Shown in pieces: positions 2,464-23,931 of a stretch of 32,000 bases of DNA. Source of the stretch: an uncultured Rhodospira sp. (GTDB taxonomy: Bacteria > Pseudomonadota > Alphaproteobacteria > Rhodospirillales > Rhodospirillaceae); NCBI RefSeq assembly GCF_937138205.1, contig NZ_CAKZOT010000028.1:1-32000 (forward strand). Direction: 5' to 3'. Each line of letters starts with the position of its first letter. Position 1 is the stretch's first letter. The position numbers and the translations under genes are program-made. The notes beneath the pieces were generated by a model. That model did not search any database, had not been told where the DNA came from, and was given only the letters and a program-made list of their open reading frames with translations.

Positions 2464-2656
2464 CGGAGTTTCTTGTTAGCCAAGTCTATTCCGCTCATCG
2501 GTCACGGCCCGGAAAACCGCCGAACTCCGCCCTATCTGCCCTAGAACTGATGCTCAAGCGTGCAATCCGGCGACGATGGTGCGAAGATTCGTCCGCGCAG
2601 ACGAGGCGCCGCACCCCGAATGCGAGGGAGGCGTCAGGTCAAGGGGGACGCCGGAC

Positions 2657-5476: not shown

Positions 5477-6684
5477 CGTCCCTTCCTCAAGCCCCGACCC
5501 GTGACGAACACCTGTTCTCGCCGGGACCGAAACGAATGCTGGCGCTCGACGGTGGCGGCGTGCGGGGGATCATCTCGGTCGCCTTCCTGGAGCGGCTGGA
5601 GGCCCTGCTGGCTCGGCGCCATCCCGATCCGGAGACGTTCAGACTCTGCGACTACTTCGACCTCATCGGCGGCACCTCCACCGGCGCCATCATCGCCGCG
5701 GGCCTCGCCCTGGGGATGAAGGTCGCGGAAATCCGGCGGTTCTACCTTGACCTCGCGCCCCGGGTCTTCCGTCAGGGCTGGTTCCGCATCGTCGGCGTGC
5801 AGCCGCTGTTCGACGCGCGCCGCCTGACGGAGGAGATTTCCCGCCAGGTCGGGGACCGCGCGCTCGACAGCCCGGACCTGCGCACCGGCCTGGTCATCGT
5901 CACCAAGCGGATGGACACGGGAAGCCCATGGATCCTGAGCAACGTGCCGGGAACGGCCTATTGGGACACGCCGAGCGACGGGGCGTTCCTGGGGAACCGC
6001 CATTACCGGCTCGCCAATCTGCTGCGTGCGAGTACGGCGGCCCCCTACTACTTCCAGCCTGAGCCGATCCCGGTGATCGACGGCCAGCCCCCGGGTTGGT
6101 TCGTGGACGGCGGCGTCTCGCCCTACAACAATCCCGCGCTGGCGCTGCTGCAAGTCGCGACGCTGCGCGCGCATGGCTTGCGGTGGAAGACGGGAGAGGA
6201 CAATCTCCTCCTGATGTCCATCGGCACCGGCTGTCAACGCACACGCGTGCCGCCCGACAAGGTCGGCCGCCTGTCCTCGGTCGGCTTGGCGGTGCGTGCC
6301 CTGGGCGCGGTCATCGAGGATGGGCAGGCCCTGGCGGTTGCCTTGCTGCAGGCGCTGTCGCGGCCGATCGACCCCTGGCACATCAACTCCGAGATCGGGG
6401 GCCTGGAGGACGACTGTCTCGGCGGGCAGCCCTTGCTGTCCTTCCAACGGTTCGACGTGCGTTTCGATCCCGGCTGGATCGCCACGCACACCGGCCTGAC
6501 GGTTTCGGACCGGGACCTCGAAGGCCTTGAACGGTTCGACTACCCGCCGATCGTTCCCTTGGCCGACCGCATCGGACGGGCCGCCGCCGCGCGGCTGGTC
6601 AGGGAGGACCATTTTCCCCCGGCGTTCGACACGCCGGCGACGGTCCGTCCGGCCACCGCCGACCCGCCGCCACCCCAGCGGTAG
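5473..6684 (+). CDS. Patatin-like phospholipase
   Basis: All three patatin motifs are present: the oxyanion hole LALDGGGVRGII, the nucleophile elbow IGGTSTGAIIA (GxSxG) and the catalytic Asp in FVDGGVSPYNNP (DGG). GTG start at 5473 with GAGGA 6 nt upstream, overlapping the upstream TGA by 4 nt. Confidence 0.9.
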   Translation: MTSLPQAPTRDEHLFSPGPKRMLALDGGGVRGIISVAFLERLEALLARRHPDPETFRLCDYFDLIGGTSTGAIIAAGLALGMKVAEIRRFYLDLAPRVFRQGWFRIVGVQPLFDARRLTEEISRQVGDRALDSPDLRTGLVIVTKRMDTGSPWILSNVPGTAYWDTPSDGAFLGNRHYRLANLLRASTAAPYYFQPEPIPVIDGQPPGWFVDGGVSPYNNPALALLQVATLRAHGLRWKTGEDNLLLMSIGTGCQRTRVPPDKVGRLSSVGLAVRALGAVIEDGQALAVALLQALSRPIDPWHINSEIGGLEDDCLGGQPLLSFQRFDVRFDPGWIATHTGLTVSDRDLEGLERFDYPPIVPLADRIGRAAAARLVREDHFPPAFDTPATVRPATADPPPPQR

Positions 6685-6698
6685 CCGCCCGGCAAGCC

Positions 6699-9600
6699 TC
6701 ACCGGGCCTGCGCCAGGGGAAAGTCCTGGATGGTTCCGCCGCTCTTGAACTGGGCCTGCTGCCGGTATCCCTTCTCGCTGGCGAACAGCGGGACATGCTG
6801 CTTCACCTCGGTGCCCAGTTCCAGGACGGTGGCGACGCCATCGCCGCTTCGCGTGGCCTCTTCGAGAGCGGTCAGCACGGCATGACCGAACACACCGTTG
6901 CTCTCGTTGTACCCGTCCAGCGCTTCTTCTTCGGTCGAAGACGCTGCGAGAATGAAATACCCCGTTTCATTGCCGATCTCGCCGGGCGTGTTGGCCGGAA
7001 ACGCTCCCGAATGGCACGTATCAAGCATGACCAGGGTATTGGCCCCCATCAGGGAGCCGAACAGGGAGATGAGCCGGTCCTGGTCGACCCCCACCGCCGA
7101 CGCGCCGCTCGCCCCGGGCCCGTCGTGGGTCAGGAAGCGGTATCGCCGATCCTCGGTCAGGGTCCCATGCCCCGCCAGATAGACGACGACCGTATCGTTC
7201 GGCTTGATGCGTTGGCCGACCTCGGCGAACGCGCTCTCCAGCCCCGAGACCGTCGCATCCTGGTCGAACCGCCGCACAACAATGACGTCGTCGTACGCCG
7301 TCGCGGGCATGGCCAACAGCTTTTCGGACACAGAAAGCGCGTCACGCCGCGCAAAGGCCAGGTCCTGGACGGCGTCATAGACGTCGATCCCGACCGCGAT
7401 GACGAAGAGGATCGGTTTCTCCTGCTTCTCGGGTTCCGGAACCTGCAGGGAAAGGGTCACGGACTTGCCGAACACCCCCGAGGCGCCATAGGCCCTGACG
7501 GACACCGTGTTCAGACCGGGCTTGACCGCAATAATCCGGTCGGCCTGGACCGTGCTTTCCCCGTCCTCGCCCCCCTCGTCGGCAACCACCTCGGGCCGCT
7601 GGCGCGACAGGCCGCGAGTCAGGGTGCCCGTCGTGCGCCCGTTCAGGAACACAACGTGCCGGTCAATGGCTTCAGAGCCCGGAGTCATTTCATAGACCAG
7701 GCGAACCCGATCGAACCCAGGCGGCAGCGTGGACACCGCCGCGGGGGACGTTGTCTCCTCGGTTCGGCGGCGTGACAGCCCGCGACGGGCGTGCTCGGCC
7801 GGGAAACAGGCGGCATCGGCGCCATCCGCGTCGACAGCGCAGTACCGCACCAGACGCACCTTCGGCGCCTTGGCGATCGCCTCGGCCACGCCGGGCGCTT
7901 CTTCGCGGTCGGGCGCGTATTCCTCTTCTTCGACCCGTGGGGGTGTCTCCAGCTCTATCCGGCCCACCCGCTGGCGCATCCGGTCGATATCATAGAAGCG
8001 GCTGTAGAGCTGTGAGAAGTCGATCCAACGCGCGACATTGCGCCGGCCCCGGTTCTGGACGTAGCCGGCCAGCTCCTGGCCGCCGGCCGAATGCGCGAAG
8101 CGGCCGTCGGGCGACCACAGGATCCATCGCTGTCCGTCACCATGCACGAACAGAGCCGCGATTTCCCGCAAAACAGGGCCGGGCTCCAGCGCATACCACC
8201 GGATCGTTCCGTCTCGATGCGCGGCGACAAGGCGGTCGCCGTCGCCCGAGGCCACGACCCCGGAGGCCGCCGTCAGCACCACCTTTTCCCGTGTCACGGC
8301 CCCATCCCCGGAGAAGGTGGTCACCGCATAGTCACTGCCGATGGCGACCCCGCCACCCGGCAGCATCGTCGCACTGCGCGCGATGTCGCGGGGCCGCGCC
8401 ATGTCGAGTGGCTGCCCGGCGATTGACGGCGTGCGTCCGTCGCGCCATCCGGTCAGCCCCTCCGGCACCGACGGCGCCGAAAATGCCGGTGCGGCCTCGG
8501 GGGCGTCGGTGAGCGTCAACGTCCGCGCGTCGAACCGCAGGACCTTCGAGGTGTCCCCGGTGCGGAAAGTGAAATCAACGACCGCGCCATCGCGGGAGAC
8601 ACGGAAGACATCATCAAAGATGCCCCGGAAATCGGCGGTGGCCGGGCCTTGCCGAAATGCCACCGTGCCCGTTTCGCCCGTGATCCGGCCCCAGGCGGGG
8701 TCCCCGGTCGCGAACAGGACGTCCTGGTCAGGCGTGGTTTCCAGACGCGTCACGGCATCGCGGCTGACCGGGATATCGACGAACGCGTCGGGCCGCTCCA
8801 GGTCAGCCCAGCGCCGCACCACGATCTTCCGATCGGGGTTGACGAGTCCGCCGGAGGCCCAAAGCTCCGGCCCCGCCGCACCGGTCCGCCAGGCGACGGC
8901 ACTGAAAAACCGTTCGTCGGTGTCGGGACGATCGCCGGCAAGGGTCCGCGCGTGTTCCAGCGTATCGGCCTCCAGAATATCGACGCGGGGCTGGTCCACG
9001 TATGTCACGGCCAGCCACCGTCCATCGGGCGAAAAGCGCGCCTGGGCCGGCCGGCCGGATTCCGCCTGCCACGACTGAACGGTCTCGAACCCCACGCCGT
9101 AGACGCGAACCACCCCGTTGGTCGCCGCGGCCGCAAGGCGGCCATCGGGCGCGAACTCGACCCACGTCGTGGGCGCCCCAAGATCATCCGAGAAGACGCG
9201 TTGCAGCCGCTCGTTAATCACAATGATCCCGGCGGGATTGCGGGAGTGCGCGGTCGCGAGGCGGGTTTCGCGGGCCTCGGGCGCGGCGCGAAAGGTATCG
9301 ATGGCGTTGACAATGCCGCCGCTGGCCACGCGGTCGATGACATCAAGGCCGGAGGCAAAACGGATGAAGTACAGAAGGTTGAAACGCCGCCCCTGCTCGT
9401 CGGCGAAATAGCGGGCGCCCGTGAACCCGGCGGTGATGATGTGGCTTTCCCCCGGCCAATATCGGACGGCATTGAGAATGCCTTCCTCTTCGGGTCCGAT
9501 GGGCGTCCGGACGGTCTCAAGCAGTTCACCTGTGGTGGCGTCCCATAACCGCAACGTTTTATCGTCGGAAACAGTGGCCACGACCTTACCGTCGGCCCGC

Positions 9601-9794
9601 ACCGTCATGTCGCGAATTGTGCTGGTGTGGGAGCCGGTTTCGATCCGAAGGATCGGGTCCGTCGGCAGGCCGTCCGCGCGGGCGGCCGTGCTGACCAACC
9701 CATGACTCATTGCCAGGGTCACCAGACCCACCAGACCCCAACACAGGCGAACCGCAATGCGCCACAGCGGCGGCTGCTCGGCCGTCATGACCAT
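6699..9794 (-). CDS. Exported WD40/beta-propeller protein with C-terminal caspase-like (peptidase C14) domain
   Basis: Signal-peptide-like N-terminus: LWRIAVRLCWGLVGLVTLAMSHGLVSTAARA/DG. One classic WD40 blade (HTSTIRDMTVRADGKVVATVSDDKTLRLWD) is followed by degenerate blades (DRLVAAHRDGTIRWY, WILWSPDGRFAHS...). The C-terminal caspase fold has ILFVIAVGIDVYD, VVVYLAGHGT (catalytic His) and LVMLDTCHSGAF (catalytic Cys). I favour the ATG at 9794 (GGGAG 7 nt upstream); the track start at 9821 is also possible. Confidence 0.85.
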   Translation of the reverse strand: MVMTAEQPPLWRIAVRLCWGLVGLVTLAMSHGLVSTAARADGLPTDPILRIETGSHTSTIRDMTVRADGKVVATVSDDKTLRLWDATTGELLETVRTPIGPEEEGILNAVRYWPGESHIITAGFTGARYFADEQGRRFNLLYFIRFASGLDVIDRVASGGIVNAIDTFRAAPEARETRLATAHSRNPAGIIVINERLQRVFSDDLGAPTTWVEFAPDGRLAAAATNGVVRVYGVGFETVQSWQAESGRPAQARFSPDGRWLAVTYVDQPRVDILEADTLEHARTLAGDRPDTDERFFSAVAWRTGAAGPELWASGGLVNPDRKIVVRRWADLERPDAFVDIPVSRDAVTRLETTPDQDVLFATGDPAWGRITGETGTVAFRQGPATADFRGIFDDVFRVSRDGAVVDFTFRTGDTSKVLRFDARTLTLTDAPEAAPAFSAPSVPEGLTGWRDGRTPSIAGQPLDMARPRDIARSATMLPGGGVAIGSDYAVTTFSGDGAVTREKVVLTAASGVVASGDGDRLVAAHRDGTIRWYALEPGPVLREIAALFVHGDGQRWILWSPDGRFAHSAGGQELAGYVQNRGRRNVARWIDFSQLYSRFYDIDRMRQRVGRIELETPPRVEEEEYAPDREEAPGVAEAIAKAPKVRLVRYCAVDADGADAACFPAEHARRGLSRRRTEETTSPAAVSTLPPGFDRVRLVYEMTPGSEAIDRHVVFLNGRTTGTLTRGLSRQRPEVVADEGGEDGESTVQADRIIAVKPGLNTVSVRAYGASGVFGKSVTLSLQVPEPEKQEKPILFVIAVGIDVYDAVQDLAFARRDALSVSEKLLAMPATAYDDVIVVRRFDQDATVSGLESAFAEVGQRIKPNDTVVVYLAGHGTLTEDRRYRFLTHDGPGASGASAVGVDQDRLISLFGSLMGANTLVMLDTCHSGAFPANTPGEIGNETGYFILAASSTEEEALDGYNESNGVFGHAVLTALEEATRSGDGVATVLELGTEVKQHVPLFASEKGYRQQAQFKSGGTIQDFPLAQAR

Positions 9795-9840
9795 CGTCAA
9801 ACTCCCTGAGTCGTCTGTCATCGCCGGCGTGTGACGGGGG

Positions 9841-9983: not shown

Positions 9984-11048
9984 TCAGCTGAGGGTGAAGG
10001 CGTCGGTTTGCGCCTTGGACGTCGCCACTTCCTCGTACACGCGATCCCGCTTCTCGACATTGGCCAGGCTGACGGCCTGCAGGTCGCCGACCTTGTCCCG
10101 CTCGTTCGAGGGCAGAACCACGTCGTCAACGCGCCCGGGAGGAAGCGGTTTTTCCGCCGGCCGGTTCTCGATTCGCGCCGAAGCCGGACCGGCCCCGCGA
10201 CCGCGACCGATCAGGAAATCGGCGATGTAGGCTTGGCCGCCGTTCGGATTGACGATCCGCGACCACCCGTTCGCGCTCGACAAGACTGTCACACGGGTTC
10301 CCCGGGTCAGGCGGCCCACCTTGTCGTACTGCGTTCCGGGTCCCGACCGCAAATTGGCGGTGCGCGTCACGCGCGCGCCACCGCCCTGGGACAGGCGCGG
10401 CGCATTGACCTCAAGCTGCCGGCCGCCGTTGTCCGCCGCGATCTGGTTGTAGACGGCCGCATAGCCCTCGGTTCGGTCGGAAATGTTGCTGGCGATGCGC
10501 TCCATCTGTCGCACGTCTTCCTGGTACCGTTCGCGCACAGCGGCCATGCGCTCCTCGGCGACGGCGCGCGTGATGCGGCCGGCGTCAAGGGCCTCGCGGA
10601 TGTCCTGGGCCTCGTCGTACCGGCACCCGCGCAACGCCTCGAACCGGGTCAGCAGCAGGTCGATGCGGGTGTTTTCCTCGCGAACACCCTTGATGGCCGC
10701 CTCCGTAAGTTCGACCGAATTGCCGGTCTGCCGTTGAAGGTCGTACAACAGAGTTCCGGCGAGCGCGGCCGCGGCGCCCAGACCGGCCCCGACAAACGGA
10801 TTCTCATCGGCGAGCAGCGCCCCCAGGGCACCCGCCCCCGCCCCCAACAGGACATTGCGGAGCACCTCGGTTTCGAACGTGTTGCCGGTGCTGTCCAGGG
10901 CGGCCCGTTGGGCGTAGCATTTGTCGTCCTTGTCGGACAGATACCCCCCGGGAAGGATGCTGCCGATATTCGTTGTCTGGCAACCGCCAAGGACCAGCGC
11001 CGTCGCGACCGCCGTTGTCATGAAAAAGCGAGACCTCGTGTACGTCAT
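9984..11048 (-). CDS. Lipoprotein with Gly-zipper region, coiled-coil segment and bacterial SH3 domain
   Basis: ATG at 11048 with GGAGG 8 nt upstream. The lipobox is MTYTRSRFFMTTAVATALVLGG/C. There is a Gly/Ala-rich zipper (LLGAGAGALGALLA...GAGLGAAAALAG) and an SH3_3-like segment (ANLRSGPGTQYDKVGRLTRGTRVTVLSSANGWSRIVNPNGGQAYIADFLI). Confidence 0.75.
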   Translation of the reverse strand: MTYTRSRFFMTTAVATALVLGGCQTTNIGSILPGGYLSDKDDKCYAQRAALDSTGNTFETEVLRNVLLGAGAGALGALLADENPFVGAGLGAAAALAGTLLYDLQRQTGNSVELTEAAIKGVREENTRIDLLLTRFEALRGCRYDEAQDIREALDAGRITRAVAEERMAAVRERYQEDVRQMERIASNISDRTEGYAAVYNQIAADNGGRQLEVNAPRLSQGGGARVTRTANLRSGPGTQYDKVGRLTRGTRVTVLSSANGWSRIVNPNGGQAYIADFLIGRGRGAGPASARIENRPAEKPLPPGRVDDVVLPSNERDKVGDLQAVSLANVEKRDRVYEEVATSKAQTDAFTLS

Positions 11049-11076: not shown

Positions 11077-12465
11077 TCAGGACGGGTCACTGACATACCC
11101 CACCAACAAAGGGGTGGGAACGTCGGCGTGGTGCAAGGCCAGATGGAACGGACGGTCGGCGACAAAGGTGAACGGCTCGGAGCCCGCCGTGCGCAGGCCG
11201 ATGACCGCCGTCGCGGCGGCGGCGACGGTGCCTTGCTCCGTCACCTCCACCACCGAGCGCTGCACCACATTGGTCACCGACGGAGGGATGCTGCCCTGGA
11301 TGCCCTGAATGGCCGCGCTGTCGCCGAGCAACGCGCCCATGCCCAGGGAAGACAACAGGCGTGTGAGTTCCATTTTCCGGTCCAGTGACAGTCGTGGCAG
11401 GCTCACGGTTCCCTCGCCCGGCCGGGTCGTCTCCGTGTGGTCGGTTGTGAACAGCCAGGCCAAGGATTCGGACCGCGCCGCGCTCGGGTCGCTATCCGTA
11501 TCAGGCAGGTACAACGTCAGCGACAGCTTCGGGTCGATGTAAAACAGACGAACGACCTGCCCATGCTCCGTGCGGGCATAGGGGAAGACGCCGGCGCGGG
11601 ACATCATGGGAACCTGCACCGGGCTCCCTGCTCCGGTCTGGAACGGACCGTCGGCCGTATCGGTCGGATCGAAGGGCCGCAACCAATCGCCCTTGAAATA
11701 GAACGCGTTGGTCAGGACGAGGCTGGTCTGCCTGGGGAGCCTGTCGACGATGGCCTCGACCGCGTTGTTTGTCTCCGCCGCGACCCAGTCGTTGATCGTC
11801 TTGCTCGGTTCGCCGGTGGCGAAGTCGATGGAAAAGACTTCGCCACCGAACACGGACTGCATTTGGTGCGAATAGTCCGGCGTCAACGTGTAGCCCGGCG
11901 CCAGCCACAGGGCGTTGGCAAACGTCACCGTGGCTTTTTCCGACGGCGGCAAATCATTGATCGCGGCCAAACTCTCATACGGAACCCCCACGGCCTCACG
12001 GATGGACTCCCTGAGGGGGGCCCTGGTGGCCTCGCCGATCATGCTGACGGCGATCTCCATGCTGGCCGGCGACAGCACCACATTGCCGTCCCCCTGGTCC
12101 AGCAATCCCTGGTACACCCGGGCGCCCAGGGTTTCGGCTGGCGGATCAAGGGCGACGACCGACGAGGGGATCGCCATCGCGCCGGCCGGATCGGGTTGCC
12201 CGCCCTCCGCCACGACCGTTCCGCCACCGTTCTGCGAGGACTCCGTCCCCGTCTGGGCGAAGGCCGGTGAGGCCAACGACACCAGCGGCTGGCCGCCGCG
12301 ACCCCGCTCGATCCCCGTGCCCGGCGCCATGCCGTCAATGGCCAGGCCGCAGCCGGCCCACACGCCCACAGCCCCCATCAGGGCGGCCCGGCAGGTGCGC
12401 CGCAGCCCGGATCCGCGGACCGATGGACGGTACCGTCCCTCCACGGGGATTGCATGGCCGCTCAT
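11077..12465 (-). CDS. Serpin (serine protease inhibitor), exported or lipoprotein-like
   Basis: Serpin core motifs: LVLTNAFYFKGDWLRPFD, VQVPMMS, and the reactive-centre-loop hinge VVEVTEQGTVAAAATAVIGLRTAGS followed by FVADRPFHLAL. The N-terminus has RR plus a hydrophobic stretch plus VWAGC (signal/lipobox-like). GGAGAAAGGGA precedes the ATG at 12465. Confidence 0.9.
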   Translation of the reverse strand: MSGHAIPVEGRYRPSVRGSGLRRTCRAALMGAVGVWAGCGLAIDGMAPGTGIERGRGGQPLVSLASPAFAQTGTESSQNGGGTVVAEGGQPDPAGAMAIPSSVVALDPPAETLGARVYQGLLDQGDGNVVLSPASMEIAVSMIGEATRAPLRESIREAVGVPYESLAAINDLPPSEKATVTFANALWLAPGYTLTPDYSHQMQSVFGGEVFSIDFATGEPSKTINDWVAAETNNAVEAIVDRLPRQTSLVLTNAFYFKGDWLRPFDPTDTADGPFQTGAGSPVQVPMMSRAGVFPYARTEHGQVVRLFYIDPKLSLTLYLPDTDSDPSAARSESLAWLFTTDHTETTRPGEGTVSLPRLSLDRKMELTRLLSSLGMGALLGDSAAIQGIQGSIPPSVTNVVQRSVVEVTEQGTVAAAATAVIGLRTAGSEPFTFVADRPFHLALHHADVPTPLLVGYVSDPS

Positions 12466-12537
12466 GTCTTCGTCCCTTTCTCCAATCGGTGGCTGACTGG
12501 CACTGGGCCCGGATCACCCTCCGCCCGCACGCGCCGT

Positions 12538-14943
12538 TCAGGGGAGAACCCGGTAGGTCGACTTGGCCATGGACCAGCGCGCCCGCCGAACGTTGGAATC
12601 CGCGCCGACCGTAGGCTGACGCAGCTGTTTCGCCAAGGTATCGATGAAAGCCTGAGGACCAGAGACCGCCAGCACTTCGTCCAACAAGGCCTGATCCAGG
12701 GGCGCCTCGGACACCACGGCCACCAGCAGATACTCGCCCGCCGGGGGCGCAACGGTGAACCATTCGTAGCCAGTGTTCAAGACATCGGGGACAACCTGTG
12801 ACTGTCCCGGCCGAATGACATACCGGTCGATGTAGGATTGTGGAGCCGGGATGACGCGACTTACGGTGCCCGACGGGCCAACCTCGAACAGCGTGAAGTG
12901 TCCCCCCAGGTCCGTATCGACCCGGATGCGGATGCGGTCGCCGATGGGCCGGTCCGGGGTGGGTTCGACCCGGATGGCCAACTGGGCCTCGGACGGCGGC
13001 GGATTGAGTCCCCCATTGATGGCGTCTCCCGGATCGTTCGCCGCCGCGCCCGTGACGACGTCTGAACTCAGGACCGCCCGCCGCGCCGACAGACCCGGCG
13101 TCAGGCCAAGCCCGCAGATGTCACGGTTCCGCTGGCAGTACGCCTCTGATTCCTCCGTCACGTAGTCGAGCAACTCGGCATGGCTGACGACGCCGTCGTG
13201 GTCGAAATCGGCCTTCAATTCGGCGATGCCGGCAACGAAACGCCCGGTGAAGACCCCTTGGGGAACAGGAGTCTCGTCGTCGACCAGCGCGAGCTGGCTC
13301 GGGCTGACCGCCGTCCAGGTCGTGACATGGCTGTCCAGGGCCTCGAATCCAGGCGCCAGTTGAGCCGCGCGCGTGCTTCCCCGCGTGGGGCTCGCCACCG
13401 CCCGCCACGGCGTTCCTGACGGCATACGGCGCAGGCTTCGGTTCTGGGCGGGACCGAAACCCCGCGTCATGGTCCCCGCGTGGCAGCTGTCGATAACCAC
13501 GGTGACCTGTCTGTCGGGTATCCGCGCCAGCAGCGCGCGGATCTCGTCGTCGCGGATGACGTTCTTGACGCCGTCCTCCTGGGCGGATCCATCCTGGGCC
13601 ACCAGAACCTCATCGGTTCCGTCGCTTTCGTCACCGTCATCATCCGCCACGCTGAAACCATGTCCGGAAAACGACAGGAACACCCGGCCGCCGGGTTTCG
13701 AACCCTCGACAAGCCAGCTCTCGATCGCGGCGAGAATGCCGTCGCGTGTGGCGGCGGAGTCCTTGAGAACCTTCACCTGATCCGTCTGGTAGCCAAAATG
13801 CTCGACCAGGAGGGTTGCCATGTTGTCGGCGTCGACGGTCGAGCCGACCAGGTCGTTGAGGTCGCCGACATAGTCGTCAATGCCGATGACAAGCGCGCGG
13901 TCTGAATCCGTGGGGGTCGGCGGCGGCGGCGGTGCCGGCTGGCCATTGTAGCGCGGGAGCGCGACGTATTGCTCGATCCACGAGGCGTACGCCGAAACGC
14001 GGGTGTAGACGCTGGGTTTCGGAAGGCACGGGACGGCCTCCGAGCCGGGGCCCCAACTGGTCAATCCGATTTGATAGTATTGCCCGTCCGCCGCGCGGGT
14101 CAGAATGGGCCCCCCGGAGTCCCCTTTGCAGGTATCGGAGACCCCAACGCCGGCGCATATCTGGTTCTCGGTGATCAGCCCCCTCAGGTTCGGCGTCATC
14201 TGACGCCGGCAGTCCGGCACCGAGACCACCGGAACCTCCGCGCGCAGGAGCTGTTCCGACGTGGCGGTCCCGCGTCGATCCGTCCGCCCCCAGCCGACGA
14301 CGACCGCGTCTTGGCCGGATTGCTCGACCTGCGCGGCAACCGGTCCGACACCGAGGCGGACGGTCGGCACGTCAAGGTCGTCCTCCAGTTCCAGCAGCGC
14401 AATGTCGTGCAGCTCTCCGTTCGTGGAAATGTAGTCCGGATGAACAATGGCCCGAGTGACTTGCGACGCGGGGCCATAGGTACGGACCTTGCCGGGCGCC
14501 ACCACGTCGGGCCGACGGACGTTGCCGGCCTGCACAATGACCGTGGCGGTCCCCCGGACCGGATCCAGGATGACGCGGTTATCCTCATCGTAAACACAAT
14601 GCGCGGCGGTGAGCACCCAGCGGGGCGCGACCACGGTCCCGCCGCACATGATGTTCCCCTCGCGCTTTGCAATGAAGAGGAAGGCCTGATACGGCCAAGC
14701 GTTCGCGCGAGCGGGCCTGCCGCCGATGATCCGCGTCCCCCCCGAGGGGAGGACGGGACGGTTGGCGGGGCGCACCAGGCGGTCCTCACCGCTCGCCTGG
14801 TCACCGGACGGGTCTTGAGTCCCGCCCCGAACGATTTCGAACCGCGGCAGTCCGCCCTCTGCCCGCGCGCTGTTGCTTCCAAACAGGACCGCCACCGCGG
14901 CCACGGCGATCAGCAGCACCCCCAGGATTGAACGGTTCAGCAT
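12538..14943 (-). CDS. Exported fusion protein: trypsin-like S1 serine protease + caspase-like C14 domain + EF-hand-like loop + DUF4384-like C-terminal domain
   Basis: Signal peptide MLNRSILGVLLIAVAAVAVLFGSNSARA/EG. The S1 triad is present: RIIGG...LTAAHCV (His), DIALLEL (Asp), DTCKGDSGGP (Ser; the Asp six residues before it is the trypsin-type S1 pocket). A Pro-rich linker (PAPPPPPTP) follows. The caspase part has LVIGIDDY, FLSFSGHGFS (His) and VVIDSCHAGT (Cys). The DxDxDG loop is DFDHDGVVSHAELLDY, and the C-terminal beta-rich segment is IRIRVDTDLGGHFTLFEVGPSGTV...GEYLLVAVVS. Confidence 0.9.
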   Translation of the reverse strand: MLNRSILGVLLIAVAAVAVLFGSNSARAEGGLPRFEIVRGGTQDPSGDQASGEDRLVRPANRPVLPSGGTRIIGGRPARANAWPYQAFLFIAKREGNIMCGGTVVAPRWVLTAAHCVYDEDNRVILDPVRGTATVIVQAGNVRRPDVVAPGKVRTYGPASQVTRAIVHPDYISTNGELHDIALLELEDDLDVPTVRLGVGPVAAQVEQSGQDAVVVGWGRTDRRGTATSEQLLRAEVPVVSVPDCRRQMTPNLRGLITENQICAGVGVSDTCKGDSGGPILTRAADGQYYQIGLTSWGPGSEAVPCLPKPSVYTRVSAYASWIEQYVALPRYNGQPAPPPPPTPTDSDRALVIGIDDYVGDLNDLVGSTVDADNMATLLVEHFGYQTDQVKVLKDSAATRDGILAAIESWLVEGSKPGGRVFLSFSGHGFSVADDDGDESDGTDEVLVAQDGSAQEDGVKNVIRDDEIRALLARIPDRQVTVVIDSCHAGTMTRGFGPAQNRSLRRMPSGTPWRAVASPTRGSTRAAQLAPGFEALDSHVTTWTAVSPSQLALVDDETPVPQGVFTGRFVAGIAELKADFDHDGVVSHAELLDYVTEESEAYCQRNRDICGLGLTPGLSARRAVLSSDVVTGAAANDPGDAINGGLNPPPSEAQLAIRVEPTPDRPIGDRIRIRVDTDLGGHFTLFEVGPSGTVSRVIPAPQSYIDRYVIRPGQSQVVPDVLNTGYEWFTVAPPAGEYLLVAVVSEAPLDQALLDEVLAVSGPQAFIDTLAKQLRQPTVGADSNVRRARWSMAKSTYRVLP

Positions 14944-16604
14944 TGCGGGGCCCCTTGTGCGCAGGTGTACAAGGCGAACAATCCCAACCGATAGGACGCC
15001 GATCGCAATCGCTCTTCCATCCTGTCCGGCACATCAAGCGCACGCGTCGTGCCGTCCAGGCCACGCAACGCTTCGACCATGTCGGGCAATGGGCGATCCG
15101 TGGCGAGGCCGACCAGCAGATCGGCCCCGTAGGGGCGGCCGACCAGGATATCCTCCAGGATAAACGGCTCGGCCGGATCGCGCGGCCCGGCTTCCACCGC
15201 ATCGAGAGGGTAAAGGAACTGGACGGTGCCGTCGTTGGCCAGATTGACGAGCGTCAAGTAAGGGTACGTGAGGTCGTCCATGATCAGCGTCACCAGTTCC
15301 CCGTCGGCGTAGGTCGGCTTCGGGGGCGACGCCGCGATTGTCAAGGGGGCCATTTCGGCCAGCGCGGCGAACCGCAGATGGGCGCGAGCCTTGCTCACAA
15401 CGCCCTGCAATGCGTCGGCGTCGATGTCCTCGGCGACCACCGTATCAATGCCACTGATCACATCGCCGGTCGCCGGATCCCAGACGATGTCCGGCGTCTC
15501 GGTTACCGCGACGACCTGAACGCCCTCCAGTGGCGGCAGCCTCGCGGCGACCTCTCCGTGCACGGCCAGCCGGATGGGCCGATCGGGCATGGGAGCGGGC
15601 GAGGAGTGAGCGCCAGCGGCCGGTGACAAGTCCGCGTGCCAGTTCTCGTCACTGGCGACGATGCTGGGAATCTGCTGGCCCTGCGTTGCGGTCCTGATGT
15701 TCCGGATGATGTAGTCCTTGAACTCATCGAACCTGAGCACGCCGTCCCGGTCGGCATCCGCCGCGCCGCGCAGGCCCCGGGCGAAGTAGTAGCTCAGGGC
15801 GCCGCGCGGCACCGCCTGTCCGGACTCGTCGGGCAAGGCGATCTCCGGCGCGAGGCTGTCATCCAGCACGGCGGAAAACGAAAACAGGTTGTCGGCGATC
15901 GTCTCCTCGGCGCCCCCTGAGTCCACGTCCAATCCCTCGAACAGCATCGACTCATCGAGGTCCGCCATAAGGTCGCCCTCGACCTTGACGTTCGAGAATC
16001 GGTAGCGCGGTCGCACGCGCCGGTCGACGGCGCGGAAGGTCGTTCCCGAGTGGCAGGCGTCGACGACAAGGGCGACGGTGACGCCCTTGTCGCCAGCCTT
16101 GTCAACAAACGCGCCGATCTCGTCATCCAGGATGAAATCCTGGCGCCCGGGTCCGCGCCGTTCGAAGGCGTGCAGGGCCAGGAACTCGTCGTAGCCGTCC
16201 GCTTCTTCGCTATCGACGGCGGCGACGCGCTGCATTCCGTGGCCGGCATACGTCAGCAACAGCAGGTCACCGGGGTGCGCGCGCGCCAGGGCGCGATCCC
16301 ATGCCCCCACAACGGCCCCCCGGGTCGCCTGGTCGTCGAGAAGCACCGACAGATCCGTGATGCCCAGCGTTCGCAGCGTCTCGGCGATATCCCGCGCGTC
16401 ATTGACCGCGCCGCTCAGGTCCGAGAGGATGCCTTCCGGGTCGCGGTAGTCGTCGATGCCAACCACCACCGCCCGCCACTCGCCGGCCTGCGCTTGCGCG
16501 AGAGCCGGATCGGACACCATGCCCAGCAGCGCCGCGCCGGCAAGACTGCCGGCCAACAGCGCGGACGCCACGGGTCGGCACACTCTATTGGGCACAGACA
16601 CCAT
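14937..16604 (-). CDS. Exported caspase-like (C14) protein with EF-hand-like loop and DUF4384-like C-terminal domain
   Basis: I favour the ATG at 16604 (GAGGA 6 nt upstream); the track start is a GTG at 16625. Signal peptide: VASALLAGSLAGAALLGMVSDPALA/QA. The caspase part has AVVVGIDDY, LLLTYAGHGMQ (His) and LVVDACHSGT (Cys). The Ca-binding-like loop is DADRDGVLRFDEFKDYI. The 3' end overlaps the next gene's ATG by 7 nt (14937-14943). Confidence 0.85.
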   Translation of the reverse strand: MVSVPNRVCRPVASALLAGSLAGAALLGMVSDPALAQAQAGEWRAVVVGIDDYRDPEGILSDLSGAVNDARDIAETLRTLGITDLSVLLDDQATRGAVVGAWDRALARAHPGDLLLLTYAGHGMQRVAAVDSEEADGYDEFLALHAFERRGPGRQDFILDDEIGAFVDKAGDKGVTVALVVDACHSGTTFRAVDRRVRPRYRFSNVKVEGDLMADLDESMLFEGLDVDSGGAEETIADNLFSFSAVLDDSLAPEIALPDESGQAVPRGALSYYFARGLRGAADADRDGVLRFDEFKDYIIRNIRTATQGQQIPSIVASDENWHADLSPAAGAHSSPAPMPDRPIRLAVHGEVAARLPPLEGVQVVAVTETPDIVWDPATGDVISGIDTVVAEDIDADALQGVVSKARAHLRFAALAEMAPLTIAASPPKPTYADGELVTLIMDDLTYPYLTLVNLANDGTVQFLYPLDAVEAGPRDPAEPFILEDILVGRPYGADLLVGLATDRPLPDMVEALRGLDGTTRALDVPDRMEERLRSASYRLGLFALYTCAQGAPQC

Positions 16605-17577
16605 AGCGCTCCTCGGATACGCCACCCTGGCCGTAGAACACCTCGACCCTGCGGTTGATTTGCCAGCGCTCCTCCTGAGTGTATCCGCCCGGATTGCTCA
16701 GCCGCACAGGCACCCGTTCGCCGCACCACCGCACCCGCACGGATCCCGGGAAGCCGTTGGCCTGAAGATAATCCTTGAGGCGGAGCGCGCGCCGCTTTGA
16801 CAGCTCCAGGTTGTGGATATCCGATCCTCGATCGTCGGTGTGGCCGATCACAGTGACGGAATGGGGCGTTTCCTTGCGCAGGATCGGCAACAGCCGCTCG
16901 GCCGAAACCTGGCCACGGGGATCGAACTCGGCCTTGTTTGTGACAAACGTGATTTGCGGCGTCTTTTTCGGAACGGCGATGCCCCGAACGGTCGGCGCGA
17001 AGTAAGGCGTCGGCGCGCCGCCGCGGGTCGTGGGCTCCACCGGAATGGAACTGAGGGACAGCGCCTCCGATGCCGCGTCGTGCACCGCCAGGATCGTCTC
17101 CTGGTCGGGCGGCGTGCGGGTGAAGCGCGTATCGTCAATCAGTTCGAGGGCTTTGAAGTACTGCTCGGTGGCGTCGCTGAACCGTTTCCGGGACATGGCG
17201 AGTTCGCCGAGCAGACGCCGCAATTCCCAATGATCCCCGTACGCGAGAAAGGCCTCGGCGTCCGCGATGACGCCGGAAACGTCCTCGCCCTTTTCGAGCC
17301 TGAGCCGAGCAAGTCGTGCCGCCAACAGGCCAAGGTTCGACCGCGCATCGATCCGGTTCTGCGGCGGGCAATAGAGGTCGATGTCCTCGATCAGACCGCT
17401 GGCTGTCGTGATATCAGCCTGCTTGAGCGCGGCGACAAATTCTTTCAGCGCACTGCGACAAGAGTCGGCACCGCCCGGCGTCGCACTGGCAGGCCCCGGA
17501 CTTAAAAACAAAAACAAACCGACGCACAGAACCGCGCACCGTACATGCTTTGATAAACGGTCTTCCTCGTCCAACAC
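16585..17577 (-). CDS. Exported helical (TPR-like) protein with OmpA-family peptidoglycan-binding C-terminal domain
   Basis: OmpA_C pattern: ITFVTNKAEFDPRGQVSAERLLPIL...VTVIGHTDDRGSDIHNLELSKRRALRLKDYL. Signal peptide: KHVRCAVLCVGLFLFLSPGPASA/T. I favour the GTG at 17577 (GGAGGGGGG just upstream); the track start at 17673 would add 32 non-signal residues. The 3' end overlaps the next gene by 20 nt. Confidence 0.8.
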   Translation of the reverse strand: MLDEEDRLSKHVRCAVLCVGLFLFLSPGPASATPGGADSCRSALKEFVAALKQADITTASGLIEDIDLYCPPQNRIDARSNLGLLAARLARLRLEKGEDVSGVIADAEAFLAYGDHWELRRLLGELAMSRKRFSDATEQYFKALELIDDTRFTRTPPDQETILAVHDAASEALSLSSIPVEPTTRGGAPTPYFAPTVRGIAVPKKTPQITFVTNKAEFDPRGQVSAERLLPILRKETPHSVTVIGHTDDRGSDIHNLELSKRRALRLKDYLQANGFPGSVRVRWCGERVPVRLSNPGGYTQEERWQINRRVEVFYGQGGVSEERYGVCAQ

Positions 17578-17968
17578 TAGCCCCCCTCCAATACAAAGAA
17601 AGCGTTCGACGATCGGAATGCCAATACGATCAAAGGGAAATATCGTTTCTTTGTCCCCGAACCCATGAACCATAGGGAGGCGTATTTAAATATTGCATTT
17701 TGTGGTGTTTATCCTATTATAGATTTTCTGTCAAGGGGCACGGAACAGATTCGTCGGCAAGGTGCTGTTGAATGGTATTGCCGCGAGGCGGCACCCGGGC
17801 TCGGCCTTTCAATCGTCAGTCCGTCGCCCCGCGGCGACGGAAGGTGAACGGTGAAACCAGCAGTCGACAATTGAATACGGCGCCGATTCTCGTGCCTGGG
17901 GACGTGACTCCCCGAATTGGCCGGCAAAGCATTTAGGCGATTCCGATTTGATCTTGTTGGAGGGGGCA
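17578..17968. promoter_or_regulatory. Divergent intergenic control region with a strongly AT-rich patch
   Basis: The ~390-bp spacer lies between the minus-strand six-gene operon and the plus-strand STAND gene. The 17680-17740 stretch (gtatttaaatattgcattttgtggtgtttatcctattatagattttctg) is far more AT-rich than the rest of the window. A perfect 8-bp hairpin, ccgtcgcc-ccgc-ggcgacgg, sits at 17821-17840. Promoters are inferred, not mapped. Confidence 0.4.
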
Positions 17969-23209: not shown

Positions 23210-23299
23210 TACCGCCCATCGAAAAGGTGGACCGTTCTTGCTGGCCGTCCATCACACCGCGGCTCGAGATCCCTCGGCTCGCTTAGGGCGGATCGCGTT

Positions 23300-23860
23300 G
23301 TGGGGCGCCGTCACGCCCATGGCGTCCTGGAGACCGCCGTCATCCTTTCCGACGATGCCGGGCAGTTCAATGTCGGCGAGCACGCGTCGTGCTGGGTCCA
23401 CGCCGAGCGGCTGGTTCACAAGCTCGACACCTTCACCGAGGCGGCCCGCCACGCCAAGGAAACGGTTCGGTCCCTGATCTGGCGGTTCTACACCGACCTG
23501 AAGGCCTACCGCGCCGCGCCCATGCCGCGCCGCAAGGCCGAACTGAAGGCCCGGTTCGCGCGCATCTTCAGGCGCCGAACCGGGTTCGTCACCCTGGGTC
23601 GCCTGCTGGCCCGACTGCGGGCCAACAGGGACGAACTCCTGCGCGTCCTGGATCGGCCGGAGATCCCGCTGCACACCAACGGCTCGGAAAACGACATCCG
23701 CTGCCATGTGACCCGCCGCAAGGTCAGCGCCACCACCCACAGCGACCACGGGCGAGACTGCCGTGACGCCTTCCTCGGCCTGAACAAGACCTGCCGCAAG
23801 CTCGGCGTCTCGTTCTGGGATGACCTCCACACGCGACTGGGATCCGATACGCTACGGACC
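23300..23860 (+). pseudogene. 5'-truncated DDE transposase fragment (IS66-like C-terminal half)
   Basis: ...VILSDDAGQFNVGEHASCWVHAERLVHKL...EIPLHTNGSENDIRCHVTRRKVSATTHSDHGRDCRDAFLGLNKTCRKLGVSFWDDLHTRLG follows the IS66-type C-terminal layout (sDgyxxY...CWaHxrR...; xNxxExxIRxxxxxRKxxxxxxSxxG...TCKxxGvxxxxYL). The N-terminal half, including the first catalytic Asp region, is missing. The reading frame then runs on without similarity into the convergent GT2 gene. The exact family is uncertain. Confidence 0.55.
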
Positions 23861-23931
23861 GCAGCCGGGCGCGGGTGTCGGGCGCCGAGGCCATGCGCCG
23901 CACGCACCGGACAGCGGCCCACGCCGACGGG

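What the first reader, a model, noticed from the sequence alone, without database searches (positions are those of the whole stretch)
11077..12465. Bacterial serpin encoded immediately downstream of its probable target protease
Serpins are uncommon in bacteria, and their targets are usually unknown. This one has an export signal and sits 72 nt after the trypsin-caspase gene in the same orientation. Its reactive-centre loop, EQGTVAAAATAVIGLRTAGS, has a canonical Ala-rich inhibitory hinge. Counting from the hinge Gly as P15 puts Arg at P2 and Thr at P1; a one-residue loop-length difference would make Arg the P1. That would match the Asp-containing S1 pocket of the neighbouring protease. Some serpins also cross-inhibit caspases, so it could gate both activities.
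Basis: partly seen in the sequence, partly recalled or inferred. Interest (0 to 1): 0.62.

Follow-up and report, generated by a model that had tools for sequence, protein, structure and literature searches.

The report
Bacterial serpin paired with neighbouring protease
This gene encodes an exported serpin-type protease inhibitor that, in every related gene cluster I could examine, sits directly after a trypsin-like protease gene, so it gives a rare bacterial serpin a probable, testable target inside its own operon.

Summary
Window 11077-12465 (-) is a 462-aa serpin (Pfam E 2e-75; confident AlphaFold native-serpin core), 72 nt downstream of a trypsin-orthocaspase-DUF4384 gene.

The hinge is of the inhibitory type (E410-x-G-T-x-AAAA). 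Arg425 is the only basic residue in the reactive loop.

New evidence:
- A serpin gene directly follows the gene carrying the trypsin (S1) domain in about 10 distinct fusion loci from three clades. It also does so where the S1 protease is a separate gene (L107, L110) and in Acidobacteriota.
- Only 3 of 79 other prokaryotic serpin loci show this arrangement.
- The loop Arg is invariant in all linked serpins, 16 or 17 residues after the hinge Glu, followed by Ser, Thr or Ala.
- Alignment to Iripin-8 pairs Arg425-Thr426 with its P1 Arg and the next residue.
- This genome has one serpin, and its only full-length trypsin-family match is the neighbouring gene.

Best reading (about 0.6): a cognate periplasmic suicide inhibitor, with P1 Arg425, of the neighbouring zymogen-type S1 domain. 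It may also act on the Arg/Lys-specific C14 domains.

Caveats: nothing is tested biochemically; the closest relatives' S1 domains lack Asp189; the loop is one residue short.

I found no published description. This scan noted a similar cluster earlier in other genomes.

The parts
11077..12465 (-). Serpin gene, 462 aa including stop
   Evidence: ORF. Pfam Serpin E 2.1e-75. AlphaFold core residues 110-462 mostly pLDDT >90. Foldseek best matches are native antithrombin, alpha-1-antitrypsin, miropin and neuroserpin, E about 1e-30.
12340..12465 (-). Residues 1-42: Arg-rich n-region plus hydrophobic segment. Probable export signal, with a possible lipobox VWAG-C39.
   Evidence: Hydropathy scan. N-terminal leaders in all relatives, and a canonical lipobox LLGC in P0004. 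By inspection only.
12142..12339 (-). Residues 43-108: Gly/Ala/Pro/Ser-rich linker, predicted disordered
   Evidence: pLDDT mostly below 55 over residues 1-100, about 83 for 101-110. Variable in length and sequence among relatives.
11173..11238 (-). Reactive-centre loop, residues 410-431. Hinge is E410-Q-G-T-V-A-A-A-A. The exposed loop precedes strand s1C (FTFV, 432-435).
   Evidence: Alignments. pLDDT below 50 for residues 416-427, flanked by confident strands.
11188..11193 (-). Proposed scissile bond Arg425 (cgc) - Thr426 (acg)
   Evidence: R425 is invariant in all linked serpins. It is the only Arg/Lys in residues 410-436. It aligns to the P1 Arg of Iripin-8.
12466..12537 (-). 72-nt intergenic spacer between the protease gene and the serpin gene
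   Evidence: No terminator-like site. Fold z-score 0.66. Shine-Dalgarno-like GGAGAAAGGGA before the ATG.
12538..14943 (-). Trypsin(S1)-orthocaspase(C14)-DUF4384 fusion protease, 801 aa, with a Sec-type signal peptide (..SNSARA/EGG)
   Evidence: Pfam. Signal peptide by inspection output.
13975..14730 (-). S1 domain, residues 72-323. Activation junction R71/I72 (TR-IIGG). Catalytic H115, D180 and S276. Pocket residues D270 (=189), G298 (=216) and S311 (=226).
13459..13899 (-). C14 p20-like domain of the fusion. Intact His428/Cys487 dyad and acidic DDDGDESDGTDE loop.
   Evidence: Aligned to yeast metacaspase Yca1 (4f6o): SGHG and DSCHxGT..
9984..11048 (-). SH3_3-domain lipoprotein gene. Starts 28 nt after the serpin stop (ATG 11048, GGAGG upstream, lipobox LGGC).
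   Evidence: The same position is conserved in clade A loci.
14937..16625 (-). Second exported C14 protein. Overlaps the fusion gene start. Its own start codon is uncertain.
6699..9821 (-). Exported WD40-C14 protein, last gene of the cassette
16585..17673 (-). OmpA-like peptidoglycan-anchor protein, first gene of the cassette. Start codon uncertain.

Best explanation
The gene encodes an exported, inhibitory-type serpin, either periplasmic or lipid-anchored. It is the dedicated partner of the trypsin-like (S1A) domain encoded by the gene directly upstream and is probably co-transcribed with it.

Inferred mechanism: the S1 domain is made as a zymogen with a propeptide of about 44 residues. It becomes active after cleavage at Arg71/Ile72, either by itself or by one of the Arg/Lys-specific C14 domains of the cassette. 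Active protease attacks the serpin's exposed loop at Arg425-Thr426. The loop then inserts into beta-sheet A and the protease is trapped as a covalent acyl-enzyme.

The serpin would therefore act as a one-for-one safety catch or threshold. It would keep an envelope-anchored protease module (S1, three C14 domains, DUF4384, OmpA and SH3 anchors) silent until activation outruns the inhibitor pool. The same Arg could also make it a suicide substrate for the C14 domains.

Shown here: the serpin fold, the inhibitory hinge, the conserved gene order, the invariant Arg, and the Asp189 pocket in this window.

Inferred: export, co-transcription, the scissile bond, the target, and the physiological role.
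For: (1) Serpin identity. Pfam full-length match E 2e-75. The model resembles native serpins, with target-normalised TM 0.73-0.84. All 17 positions invariant across 91 bacterial serpins are kept, among them W261, E410, G412 and P439-F440.

(2) Inhibitory hinge: E-x-G-T-x-A-A-A-A, the consensus quoted in PMC8233489.

(3) Linkage. A serpin gene lies immediately after the gene with the S1 domain in the following loci:
- clade A: L002, L005, L007, L008, L009
- clade B: L094, L095, L096
- clade C genomes G462 and G299
- loci where S1 is a separate 306-aa gene: L107, L110/L111
- Pyrinomonadaceae L033 and L041, and Azospirillaceae L037
The background rate is 3 of 79 other serpin loci. Linked serpins cluster on the serpin tree: 6 label changes against 14.5 expected, with 0 of 500 shuffles as low.

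(4) The Arg is invariant in all linked serpins, at position 16 or 17 from the hinge Glu, followed by Ser, Thr or Ala. R425 is the sole basic residue in the loop.

(5) HMMER pairs R425 with the RCL Arg of Iripin-8 and T426 with the following Thr. The paper gives Arg364 as P1 (PMC8431025).

(6) S1 domains with canonical D189/G216/G226 (L107, L110) pair with serpins whose Arg is at position 16. That spacing is therefore normal for this lineage.

(7) The window's S1 domain has D189, an intact catalytic triad and an R/IIGG activation site.

(8) The genome has one serpin. The neighbouring gene is its only full-length PF00089 match (164 bits, model 1-220); the other five hits are partial and weaker. 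At least three further C14 domains lie outside this contig.

(9) All cassette proteins start with signal-peptide or lipobox-like sequences.
Against:
- In the closest relatives (P0122-P0126) the S1 domain has Ser, Thr or Gly at position 189 and Thr, Ala or Gly at 226. Their serpins still keep the Arg, so an Arg-Asp189 match is not general.
- The window's own S1 domain has Ser rather than Gly at position 226.
- With Arg as P1 the P side is 16 residues, not the usual 17. From my own knowledge of Zhou, Carrell and Huntington (J Biol Chem 2001), shortening lowers inhibition efficiency, although CrmA naturally has 16.
- Basic residues at positions 16 or 17 are common in other bacterial serpins: R16 15%, R17 9%, K17 23%. 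The Arg alone is therefore not specific to linked serpins.
- Some S1-C14 fusions or copies have no serpin next to them: the second copy in L095 and the Xanthobacter locus L097.
- Five of seven other alphaproteobacterial serpins in the sample are not protease-linked.
Confidence: 0.6

Rival explanations
1. The primary target is one or more of the C14 (orthocaspase, metacaspase-like) domains of the cassette rather than the S1 domain. This would be cross-class suicide inhibition at Arg425, as for Arabidopsis Serpin1 and metacaspase 9.
For: - Orthocaspases cleave after basic residues (abstract of PMC6426788).
- The fusion's C14 domain keeps the His/Cys dyad and the acidic DGDExDGxDE loop, aligned to Yca1.
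- AtSerpin1 regulates AtMC9 (PMC2064784).
- Clade A relatives lost Asp189 in the S1 domain but keep the loop Arg.
- The only examined fusion with a dead C14 domain (P0181, Cys replaced) has no serpin nearby.
- The 16-residue P side equals that of the caspase inhibitor CrmA (own knowledge).
Against: - The serpin follows the S1 gene even where S1 is a separate protein (L107, L110). In L110 no C14 was detected within 12 kb.
- A C14-DUF4384 protein without S1 (L106) has no serpin within 10 kb.
- This genome has at least three further C14 domains outside this contig, with no serpin beside them.
- The dead-C14 observation rests on a single locus.
Confidence: 0.2
2. The serpin protects the cell envelope, or the cassette proteins themselves, from foreign proteases of competitors, predators or hosts. 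It is merely co-regulated with the cassette and has no cognate relationship to the neighbouring protease.
For: - Characterised bacterial serpins such as miropin, the siropins and the Bifidobacterium serpin act on host proteases (PMC8233489).
- A basic P1 is common in bacterial serpins generally.
- Five alphaproteobacterial serpins in the sample have no protease neighbour.
Against: The position immediately after the S1 gene is kept across lineages with 27-31% serpin identity and across fused and unfused protease architectures. This is hard to explain without a direct functional tie. The carriers appear to be free-living environmental bacteria, judging from record titles such as Thalassobaculaceae.
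Confidence: 0.08
3. Arg425 is P2 and the scissile bond is Thr426-Ala427 (the canonical 17-residue register), matched to a non-tryptic S1 pocket. Alternatively, the protein is a non-inhibitory serpin that acts as a substrate, chaperone or decoy for the protease.
For: - Canonical counting puts Thr or Ser at P1 throughout clade A.
- Clade A S1 domains mostly have Ser/Thr/Gly189 with Thr/Ala226, an elastase-like small pocket.
- The loop between the hinge Glu and the PF motif is 2 residues longer than in alpha-1-antitrypsin.
Against: - The window's own S1 domain has Asp189.
- Serpins paired with canonical D189/G216/G226 S1 domains (L107, L110) have the same Arg-Ser at positions 16-17.
- In clade B the Arg is at position 17.
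- The hinge has small residues at P12-P9 and none of the bulky or charged residues typical of non-inhibitory serpins.
Confidence: 0.07

Closest known systems
Arabidopsis Serpin1 (AtSerpin1) with metacaspase 9
   Same: An inhibitory serpin with Arg at the reactive bond that controls an Arg/Lys-specific caspase homologue of the same organism (PMC2064784). By my own recollection, its loop (..AAAASAGVIKLR/G..) is very similar in form.
   Different: It is plant and intracellular, and the genes are not linked. Here the serpin is exported, operon-encoded, and tracks a trypsin-type domain more closely than the C14 domains.
Serpin-controlled S1A zymogen cascades of animals (antithrombin or PAI-1 in blood; Spn27A or SRPN2 in insect clip-protease cascades)
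   Same: Chymotrypsin-fold proteases are activated by cleavage before an I-[IV]-G-G N-terminus and are held in check by an Arg-P1 serpin outside the cytoplasm.
   Different: Those are eukaryotic, multi-step and experimentally proven. Here there is a single operon, the protease is fused to a caspase homologue, peptidoglycan and outer-membrane anchors are present, and nothing has been tested.
Characterised bacterial and archaeal serpins (miropin, siropins, Bifidobacterium longum serpin, tengpin, chloropin, Tk-serpin, Pnserpin)
   Same: Same fold and hinge consensus. Miropin (5ncs) and tengpin (2pee) are among the Foldseek matches.
   Different: For these the targets are host proteases or are unknown (PMC8233489). 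None that I found is described as encoded directly after an S1A zymogen gene. The window's serpin is at most 34% identical to anything outside its small clade.
Iripin-8 (tick serpin, PDB 7pmu)
   Same: The local loop sequence L-R-T-A aligns with G-L-R-T-A-G here. Its P1 is Arg364 and it inhibits trypsin-like proteases.
   Different: It is a eukaryotic salivary protein. Its P side has the usual 17 residues and its P' side is 11 residues longer. It is an alignment reference only, not a close relative.
Alphaproteobacterial trypsin / QC pseudo-orthocaspase / DUF4384 proteins (Klemencic et al. 2019, PMC6426788)
   Same: The partner protease has the same domain order of trypsin, p20 and DUF4384.
   Different: Those have a dead C14 dyad. 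The window's fusion has an intact His/Cys dyad. The paper does not mention a serpin (0 occurrences).
CrmA (poxvirus cross-class serpin)
   Same: A natural serpin whose P side is one residue shorter than usual (own knowledge) and which inhibits caspase-family enzymes.
   Different: Its P1 is Asp, for Asp-specific caspases. The loop here has no Asp and the local C14 domains are of the basic-specific metacaspase type.

Membership tests
Serpin superfamily (PF00079) | Full-length serpin fold | tested here: met
   Pfam covers model positions 5-370 of 370, E 2.1e-75. The AlphaFold core has pLDDT mostly above 90. Foldseek to native serpins gives E about 1e-30 and target-normalised TM 0.73-0.84.
Inhibitory serpins | Hinge consensus P17 Glu, P15 Gly, P14 Thr/Ser, and small residues at P12-P9 | tested here: met
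   The hinge is E410-Q-G412-T413-V-A-A-A-A418. The consensus ExGTEAAAA is quoted in PMC8233489.
Inhibitory serpins | Conserved core residues needed for the stressed-to-relaxed transition (breach Trp, residues around the shutter, P289-K290-like, PF motif) | tested here: met
   All 17 positions invariant in the 91-sequence alignment are present: S132, P133, N225, T232, W261, F265, T270, F275, M288, P357, L371, G375, E410, G412, A416, P439 and F440. P357 is followed by R358.
Inhibitory serpins | 17 residues from P17 to P1 | tested here: inconclusive
   With Arg425 as P1 the count is 16. With Thr426 it is 17. A spacing of 16 recurs in serpins paired with canonical trypsin domains, and 16 is frequent among other bacterial serpins.
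Inhibitory serpins | SDS-stable covalent complex with the target and loop insertion after cleavage | not testable with these tools
   Requires recombinant proteins.
Cognate operon-encoded inhibitor of the neighbouring S1A protease | Gene order conserved across divergent lineages and rare elsewhere | tested here: met
   About 16 distinct linked loci, against 3 of 79 background serpin loci.
Cognate operon-encoded inhibitor of the neighbouring S1A protease | Reactive-bond residue matches the protease S1 pocket | tested here: inconclusive
   Arg425 matches D270 (=189) in this window and in clades B and C, L107, L110, L033 and L041. Clade A relatives have Ser, Thr or Gly at 189.
Cognate operon-encoded inhibitor of the neighbouring S1A protease | Same cellular compartment | tested here: inconclusive
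   Both proteins have N-terminal signal-like sequences by inspection. No dedicated predictor was available.
Cross-class serpin acting on C14 (metacaspase-type) proteases | Basic residue at the reactive bond and catalytically intact C14 partners | tested here: met
   R425 is the only basic loop residue. An HC dyad is present in all three C14 domains of the cassette.
Cross-class serpin acting on C14 (metacaspase-type) proteases | Serpin co-occurs with C14 independently of S1 | tested here: not met
   C14-DUF4384 without S1 (L106) has no serpin. L110 has S1 and a serpin but no detectable C14 within 12 kb.

The most novel reading that the evidence does not exclude
The cassette is a bacterial extracytoplasmic zymogen cascade. 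A sensor-bearing orthocaspase (WD40-C14) would activate the trypsin-type domain by cleavage at the conserved Arg/I-[IV]-G-G junction. The serpin would set the firing threshold, as in animal clotting or insect immune cascades. The output would be envelope remodelling, programmed death or defence. The serpin-after-S1 pairing across Alphaproteobacteria and Acidobacteriota would then mark an undescribed, widespread class of serpin-gated protease switches in prokaryotes.
Probability: 0.3. Interest if true: 0.85.

Novelty: new variant of a known kind. Interest (0 to 1): 0.66.

Why it matters
Serpins are sparse in prokaryotes. A recent superfamily analysis calls their functions 'relatively enigmatic' and states that prokaryotes lack the proteolytic networks serpins regulate in eukaryotes (PMC8233489).

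Here a bacterial serpin has a concrete, conserved candidate target in its own operon. That target is a zymogen-type trypsin domain, usually fused or linked to caspase homologues and cell-wall anchors.

If confirmed, three things would follow:
- It would give an endogenous target for a bacterial serpin lineage.
- It would show that inhibitor-controlled protease switches of the animal type exist in the bacterial envelope.
- It would offer an entry point to the unknown function of exported orthocaspases and DUF4384 proteins.

The pair can be tested directly with two recombinant proteins.

Tried and rejected
- Close relatives: I searched 200 genomes of the same order, including 15 of the same family. 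Neither the serpin nor the fusion was found in those searched, so the cassette is patchy.
The second returned only generic serpins of 25-40% identity (mostly 27-31%), none with a match to the cassette proteins nearby.
- PADLOC and NCBIfam returned nothing for the serpin.
- Literature: no paper was found that links a serpin with orthocaspase or trypsin operons or conflict systems.
- CrmA-like inhibition of Asp-specific caspases was considered and rejected. The loop has no Asp and the C14 domains align to metacaspases.
- A mis-called start was considered and rejected. ATG 12465 has a Shine-Dalgarno-like sequence, and the next Met (M30) would remove the n-region of the leader.
- A terminator or regulatory RNA in the 72-nt gap was considered; nothing was found.
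- I tried to separate S1 from C14 as target by context of fusions with a dead C14 domain. Only one such locus (L097) could be read before the look-up cap.
- A resemblance between the serpin loop and the zymogen activation site was considered. The similarity is weak (Gly at P3 in clade A, Thr at P2 in clade B, by eye) and I make no claim from it.
Full report
**Observation.**
The minus-strand ORF 11077-12465 encodes a 462-aa protein. Its ATG follows a GGAGAAAGGGA ribosome-binding-like sequence. Pfam Serpin matches residues 112-461 over model positions 5-370 of 370, E 2.1e-75. phmmer finds 135 distinct PDB serpin sequences at E below 1e-20.

An AlphaFold2 model was built on a 91-sequence alignment. 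It is confident for residues 110-462, disordered for about residues 1-105, and has one low-confidence exposed loop at 416-427. Foldseek's best matches are native (uncleaved) antithrombin, alpha-1-antitrypsin, miropin and neuroserpin.

The upstream gene 12538-14943 has Trypsin + Peptidase_C14 + DUF4384 domains. The gap between the two genes is exactly 72 nt, with no terminator-like site and no unusual fold.

The quoted loop EQGTVAAAATAVIGLRTAGS is residues 410-429. Counted from E410 as P17, Arg425 is P2 and Thr426 is P1. The export signal is only judged by eye: an Arg-rich n-region, a hydrophobic stretch at residues 25-42, and a possible VWAG-C39 lipobox.

**The gene sits in a conserved exported cassette.**
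On the minus strand the order is:
- OmpA-like protein (16585-17673)
- C14 protein (14937-16625)
- S1-C14-DUF4384 fusion
- serpin
- SH3 lipoprotein (ATG 11048, 28 nt after the serpin stop, lipobox LGGC)
- WD40-C14 protein (6699-9821)

The serpin has only four close homologues among 5.8 billion clustered proteins, at 46-50% identity. One is from Thalassobaculum salexigens. Identity then drops to 38% or less. All four, plus a Thalassobaculaceae MAG, show the same gene order.

Neither the serpin nor the fusion was found in 200 sampled genomes of the same order, including 15 of the same family. The cassette is therefore a patchy accessory module. In the window it lies beside an nSTAND1 NTPase, an IS66 fragment and a RyR-patatin pair.

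**Linkage extends far beyond the close clade.**
Homologues of the fusion at 37-39% identity (clade B; L094, L095, L096) also have a serpin as the next gene, although those serpins are only about 30% identical to ours. Two complete genomes of another alphaproteobacterial family (G462, G299) have OmpA, C14, fusion and serpin in that order.

The same arrangement appears where the S1 protease is a separate gene. Serpins P0036 and P0108 were picked because their loops resemble ours. Both lie directly after stand-alone 306-aa trypsin genes, flanked by DUF4384 and OmpA genes. A C14 gene is present in L107, and none is detectable within 12 kb in L110.

Among 79 unrelated prokaryotic serpin loci with up to 10 kb flanks, only three have a trypsin gene upstream. 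Two are Pyrinomonadaceae, which also carry a nearby C14 gene, and one is an Azospirillaceae contig.

On a 126-sequence serpin tree the linked serpins are strongly clustered: 6 label changes against 14.5 expected, with 0 of 500 shuffles as low. Thirteen of the 15 fall in one 23-row set with 96% support. One unlabelled member of that set (P0108) later proved to be linked as well.

Counter-examples exist:
- The second fusion copy in L095 has no serpin next to it.
- A Xanthobacter fusion whose C14 domain is catalytically dead has no serpin.
- A clade-B-like serpin sits beside only a DUF4384 gene, next to mobile-element genes.
- Five of seven other alphaproteobacterial serpins in a 400-genome sample have no protease neighbour.

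**Where is P1?**
In all linked serpins the loop contains an invariant Arg followed by Ser, Thr or Ala.
- Clade B reads E-x-G-T-E-A-A-A-[AG]-[ST]-A-A-V-[MF]-[TS]-T-R-[SA], so the Arg is exactly 17 residues from the hinge Glu. This is the canonical P1.
- Clade A (including the window), clade C, L107/L110, the Pyrinomonadaceae pair and L037 have the Arg at position 16.

MAFFT places a single gap on the P side of clade A relative to clade B, which aligns the Arg residues. HMMER does the same against Iripin-8 (7pmu), pairing R425 with the Arg of its RCL and T426 with the following Thr. The paper gives Arg364 as P1 (PMC8431025).

The position-16 Arg occurs in serpins paired with fully canonical trypsin pockets (D189/G216/G226 in L107 and L110). 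Arg425 is also the only Arg or Lys between residues 410 and 436. Arg425-Thr426 is therefore the most probable scissile bond.

The cost is a 16-residue P side. From my own knowledge, loop shortening reduces inhibition efficiency (Zhou, Carrell and Huntington 2001), and CrmA is a natural 16-residue case. Among 116 other bacterial serpins, Arg at position 16 (15%) is about as common as Arg at position 17 (9%). Basic residues in these registers are frequent overall. The Arg is consistent with the reading but not unique to linked serpins.

**Which protease is the target?**
The S1 domain of the neighbour has these features:
- catalytic His115, Asp180 and Ser276
- Asp270 at chymotrypsin position 189
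- Gly at position 216 and Ser at position 226
- a zymogen-type junction, ...GGTR71/IIGG, after a Sec signal peptide and a propeptide of about 44 residues

Every S1 domain in the family has an [RK]/[IV][IVL]GG junction. The genome holds one serpin. The neighbouring gene is its only full-length PF00089 match (164 bits); the other five hits are partial and weaker. At least three further C14 domains lie outside this contig. Together with the stand-alone-S1 loci, this favours the S1 domain as the partner.

Against a simple Arg-Asp189 lock, the closest relatives' S1 domains have Ser, Thr or Gly at 189 and Thr, Ala or Gly at 226, while their serpins keep the Arg. This keeps a second target in play. 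The fusion's C14 domain aligns to yeast metacaspase Yca1, with the His/Cys dyad and the acidic DGDExDGxDE loop intact. Orthocaspases cleave after basic residues (PMC6426788). A plant serpin with a P1 Arg is a known metacaspase inhibitor (PMC2064784).

The one fusion with a dead C14 domain whose context I could read has no serpin. That is a hint from a single locus.

**Mechanism proposed.**
Shown: an inhibitory-type serpin, conserved adjacency to an S1A zymogen gene, and an invariant loop Arg.

Inferred: the two genes are co-transcribed and both proteins are exported. Once activated at Arg71/Ile72, the S1 domain attacks Arg425-Thr426 and is trapped covalently. The serpin thus works as a one-for-one threshold for an envelope-anchored protease module, and may also trap the C14 domains.

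The purpose of the module (envelope remodelling, cell death or defence) is unknown. PADLOC has no model for the serpin or the cassette as a system.

**Comparison and novelty.**
The protein is a member of the serpin superfamily and meets the sequence criteria for inhibitory serpins, apart from the ambiguous loop register.

What differs from known bacterial serpins is the conserved operonic pairing with an endogenous S1A zymogen, frequently fused to an active orthocaspase. Klemencic et al. 2019 described trypsin-(QC pseudo-)orthocaspase-DUF4384 proteins but do not mention a serpin. Spence et al. 2021 call prokaryotic serpin functions enigmatic. My literature searches found no description of such an operon.

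Earlier notes of this scan recorded the operon on this window. They also recorded a similar caspase/S1/serpin/DUF4384/OmpA cluster in marine Rhodobacterales. My results agree with them and extend them.

**Verdict.**
This is a real inhibitory-type serpin. It is a new variant of a known kind, with interest 0.66.

Noticed in passing
window 13975-14730 (S1 domain) and relatives P0122-P0126: Within the closest clade the S1 specificity pocket is unusually variable: position 189 is Asp, Ser, Thr or Gly and position 226 is Ser, Thr, Ala or Gly. Four of the six clade members share an extra loop with a conserved Glu (GSEAVPC, GSENVSC, GTEEVSC, GTNEVSC) just before Cys220. The serpin loop stays constant throughout.
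   Followed up: partly
window 14731-14733 (Arg71) and all family members: Every S1 domain examined has a eukaryote-style zymogen junction [RK]/[IV][IVL]GG after a propeptide. This implies activation by an Arg/Lys-specific protease, either self or the C14 domains. In relatives lacking Asp189 the activator is unlikely to be the S1 domain itself.
   Followed up: partly
P0168-P0181 and L097:10001-12454: One subgroup of trypsin-C14 fusions has lost the C14 catalytic Cys (DTTQVS in place of DSCHAG) and the acidic DGDExDGxDE loop. Several members also have Gln for the catalytic His. This is the pseudo-orthocaspase type of Klemencic 2019. The single context available has no serpin.
   Followed up: partly
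L095:10001-18219: Two 811-aa fusion paralogues lie 3.3 kb apart, each preceded by a 380-aa DUF4384 protein. Only the first is followed by a serpin.
   Followed up: no
L033:8605-10852 and L041:8963-11128 (Pyrinomonadaceae): Acidobacterial trypsin-then-serpin pairs have Arg at loop position 16 (..MGRS.., ..VGRS..), Asp189 in the protease, and a C14 gene about 3 kb away on the other strand. These serpins fall outside the alphaproteobacterial set on the tree, so the association may be independent or very old.
   Followed up: partly
L108:818-3516: A clade-B-like serpin (P0040, loop ..AAVMSTRSAM..) lies next to a DUF4384 protein only. A DDE transposase and a reverse transcriptase are nearby, so this looks like a rearranged or decaying copy of the module.
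   Followed up: no
window 12349-12363 and P0004: The serpin of relative P0004 has a canonical lipobox (FLALLGC). The window's serpin has only a permissive one (VWAGC39). All clade members carry a disordered linker of 60-110 residues before the serpin core, which suggests a tethered inhibitor.
   Followed up: partly
window 17948-24097 and 2576-6684: The cassette is flanked by an nSTAND1 NTPase (1753 aa), an IS66 transposase fragment and a RyR/TrkA-patatin pair. Neither the serpin nor the fusion gene was found in 15 genomes of the same family. The region looks like an accessory, defence-island-like stretch.
   Followed up: no
L094:4757-6028, 15238-16281; L096:15766-18033: Clade B loci add FGE-sulfatase domain proteins, some fused to C14 and PG_binding_1, and an ECF sigma factor to the S1/serpin/DUF4384/OmpA core.
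   Followed up: no
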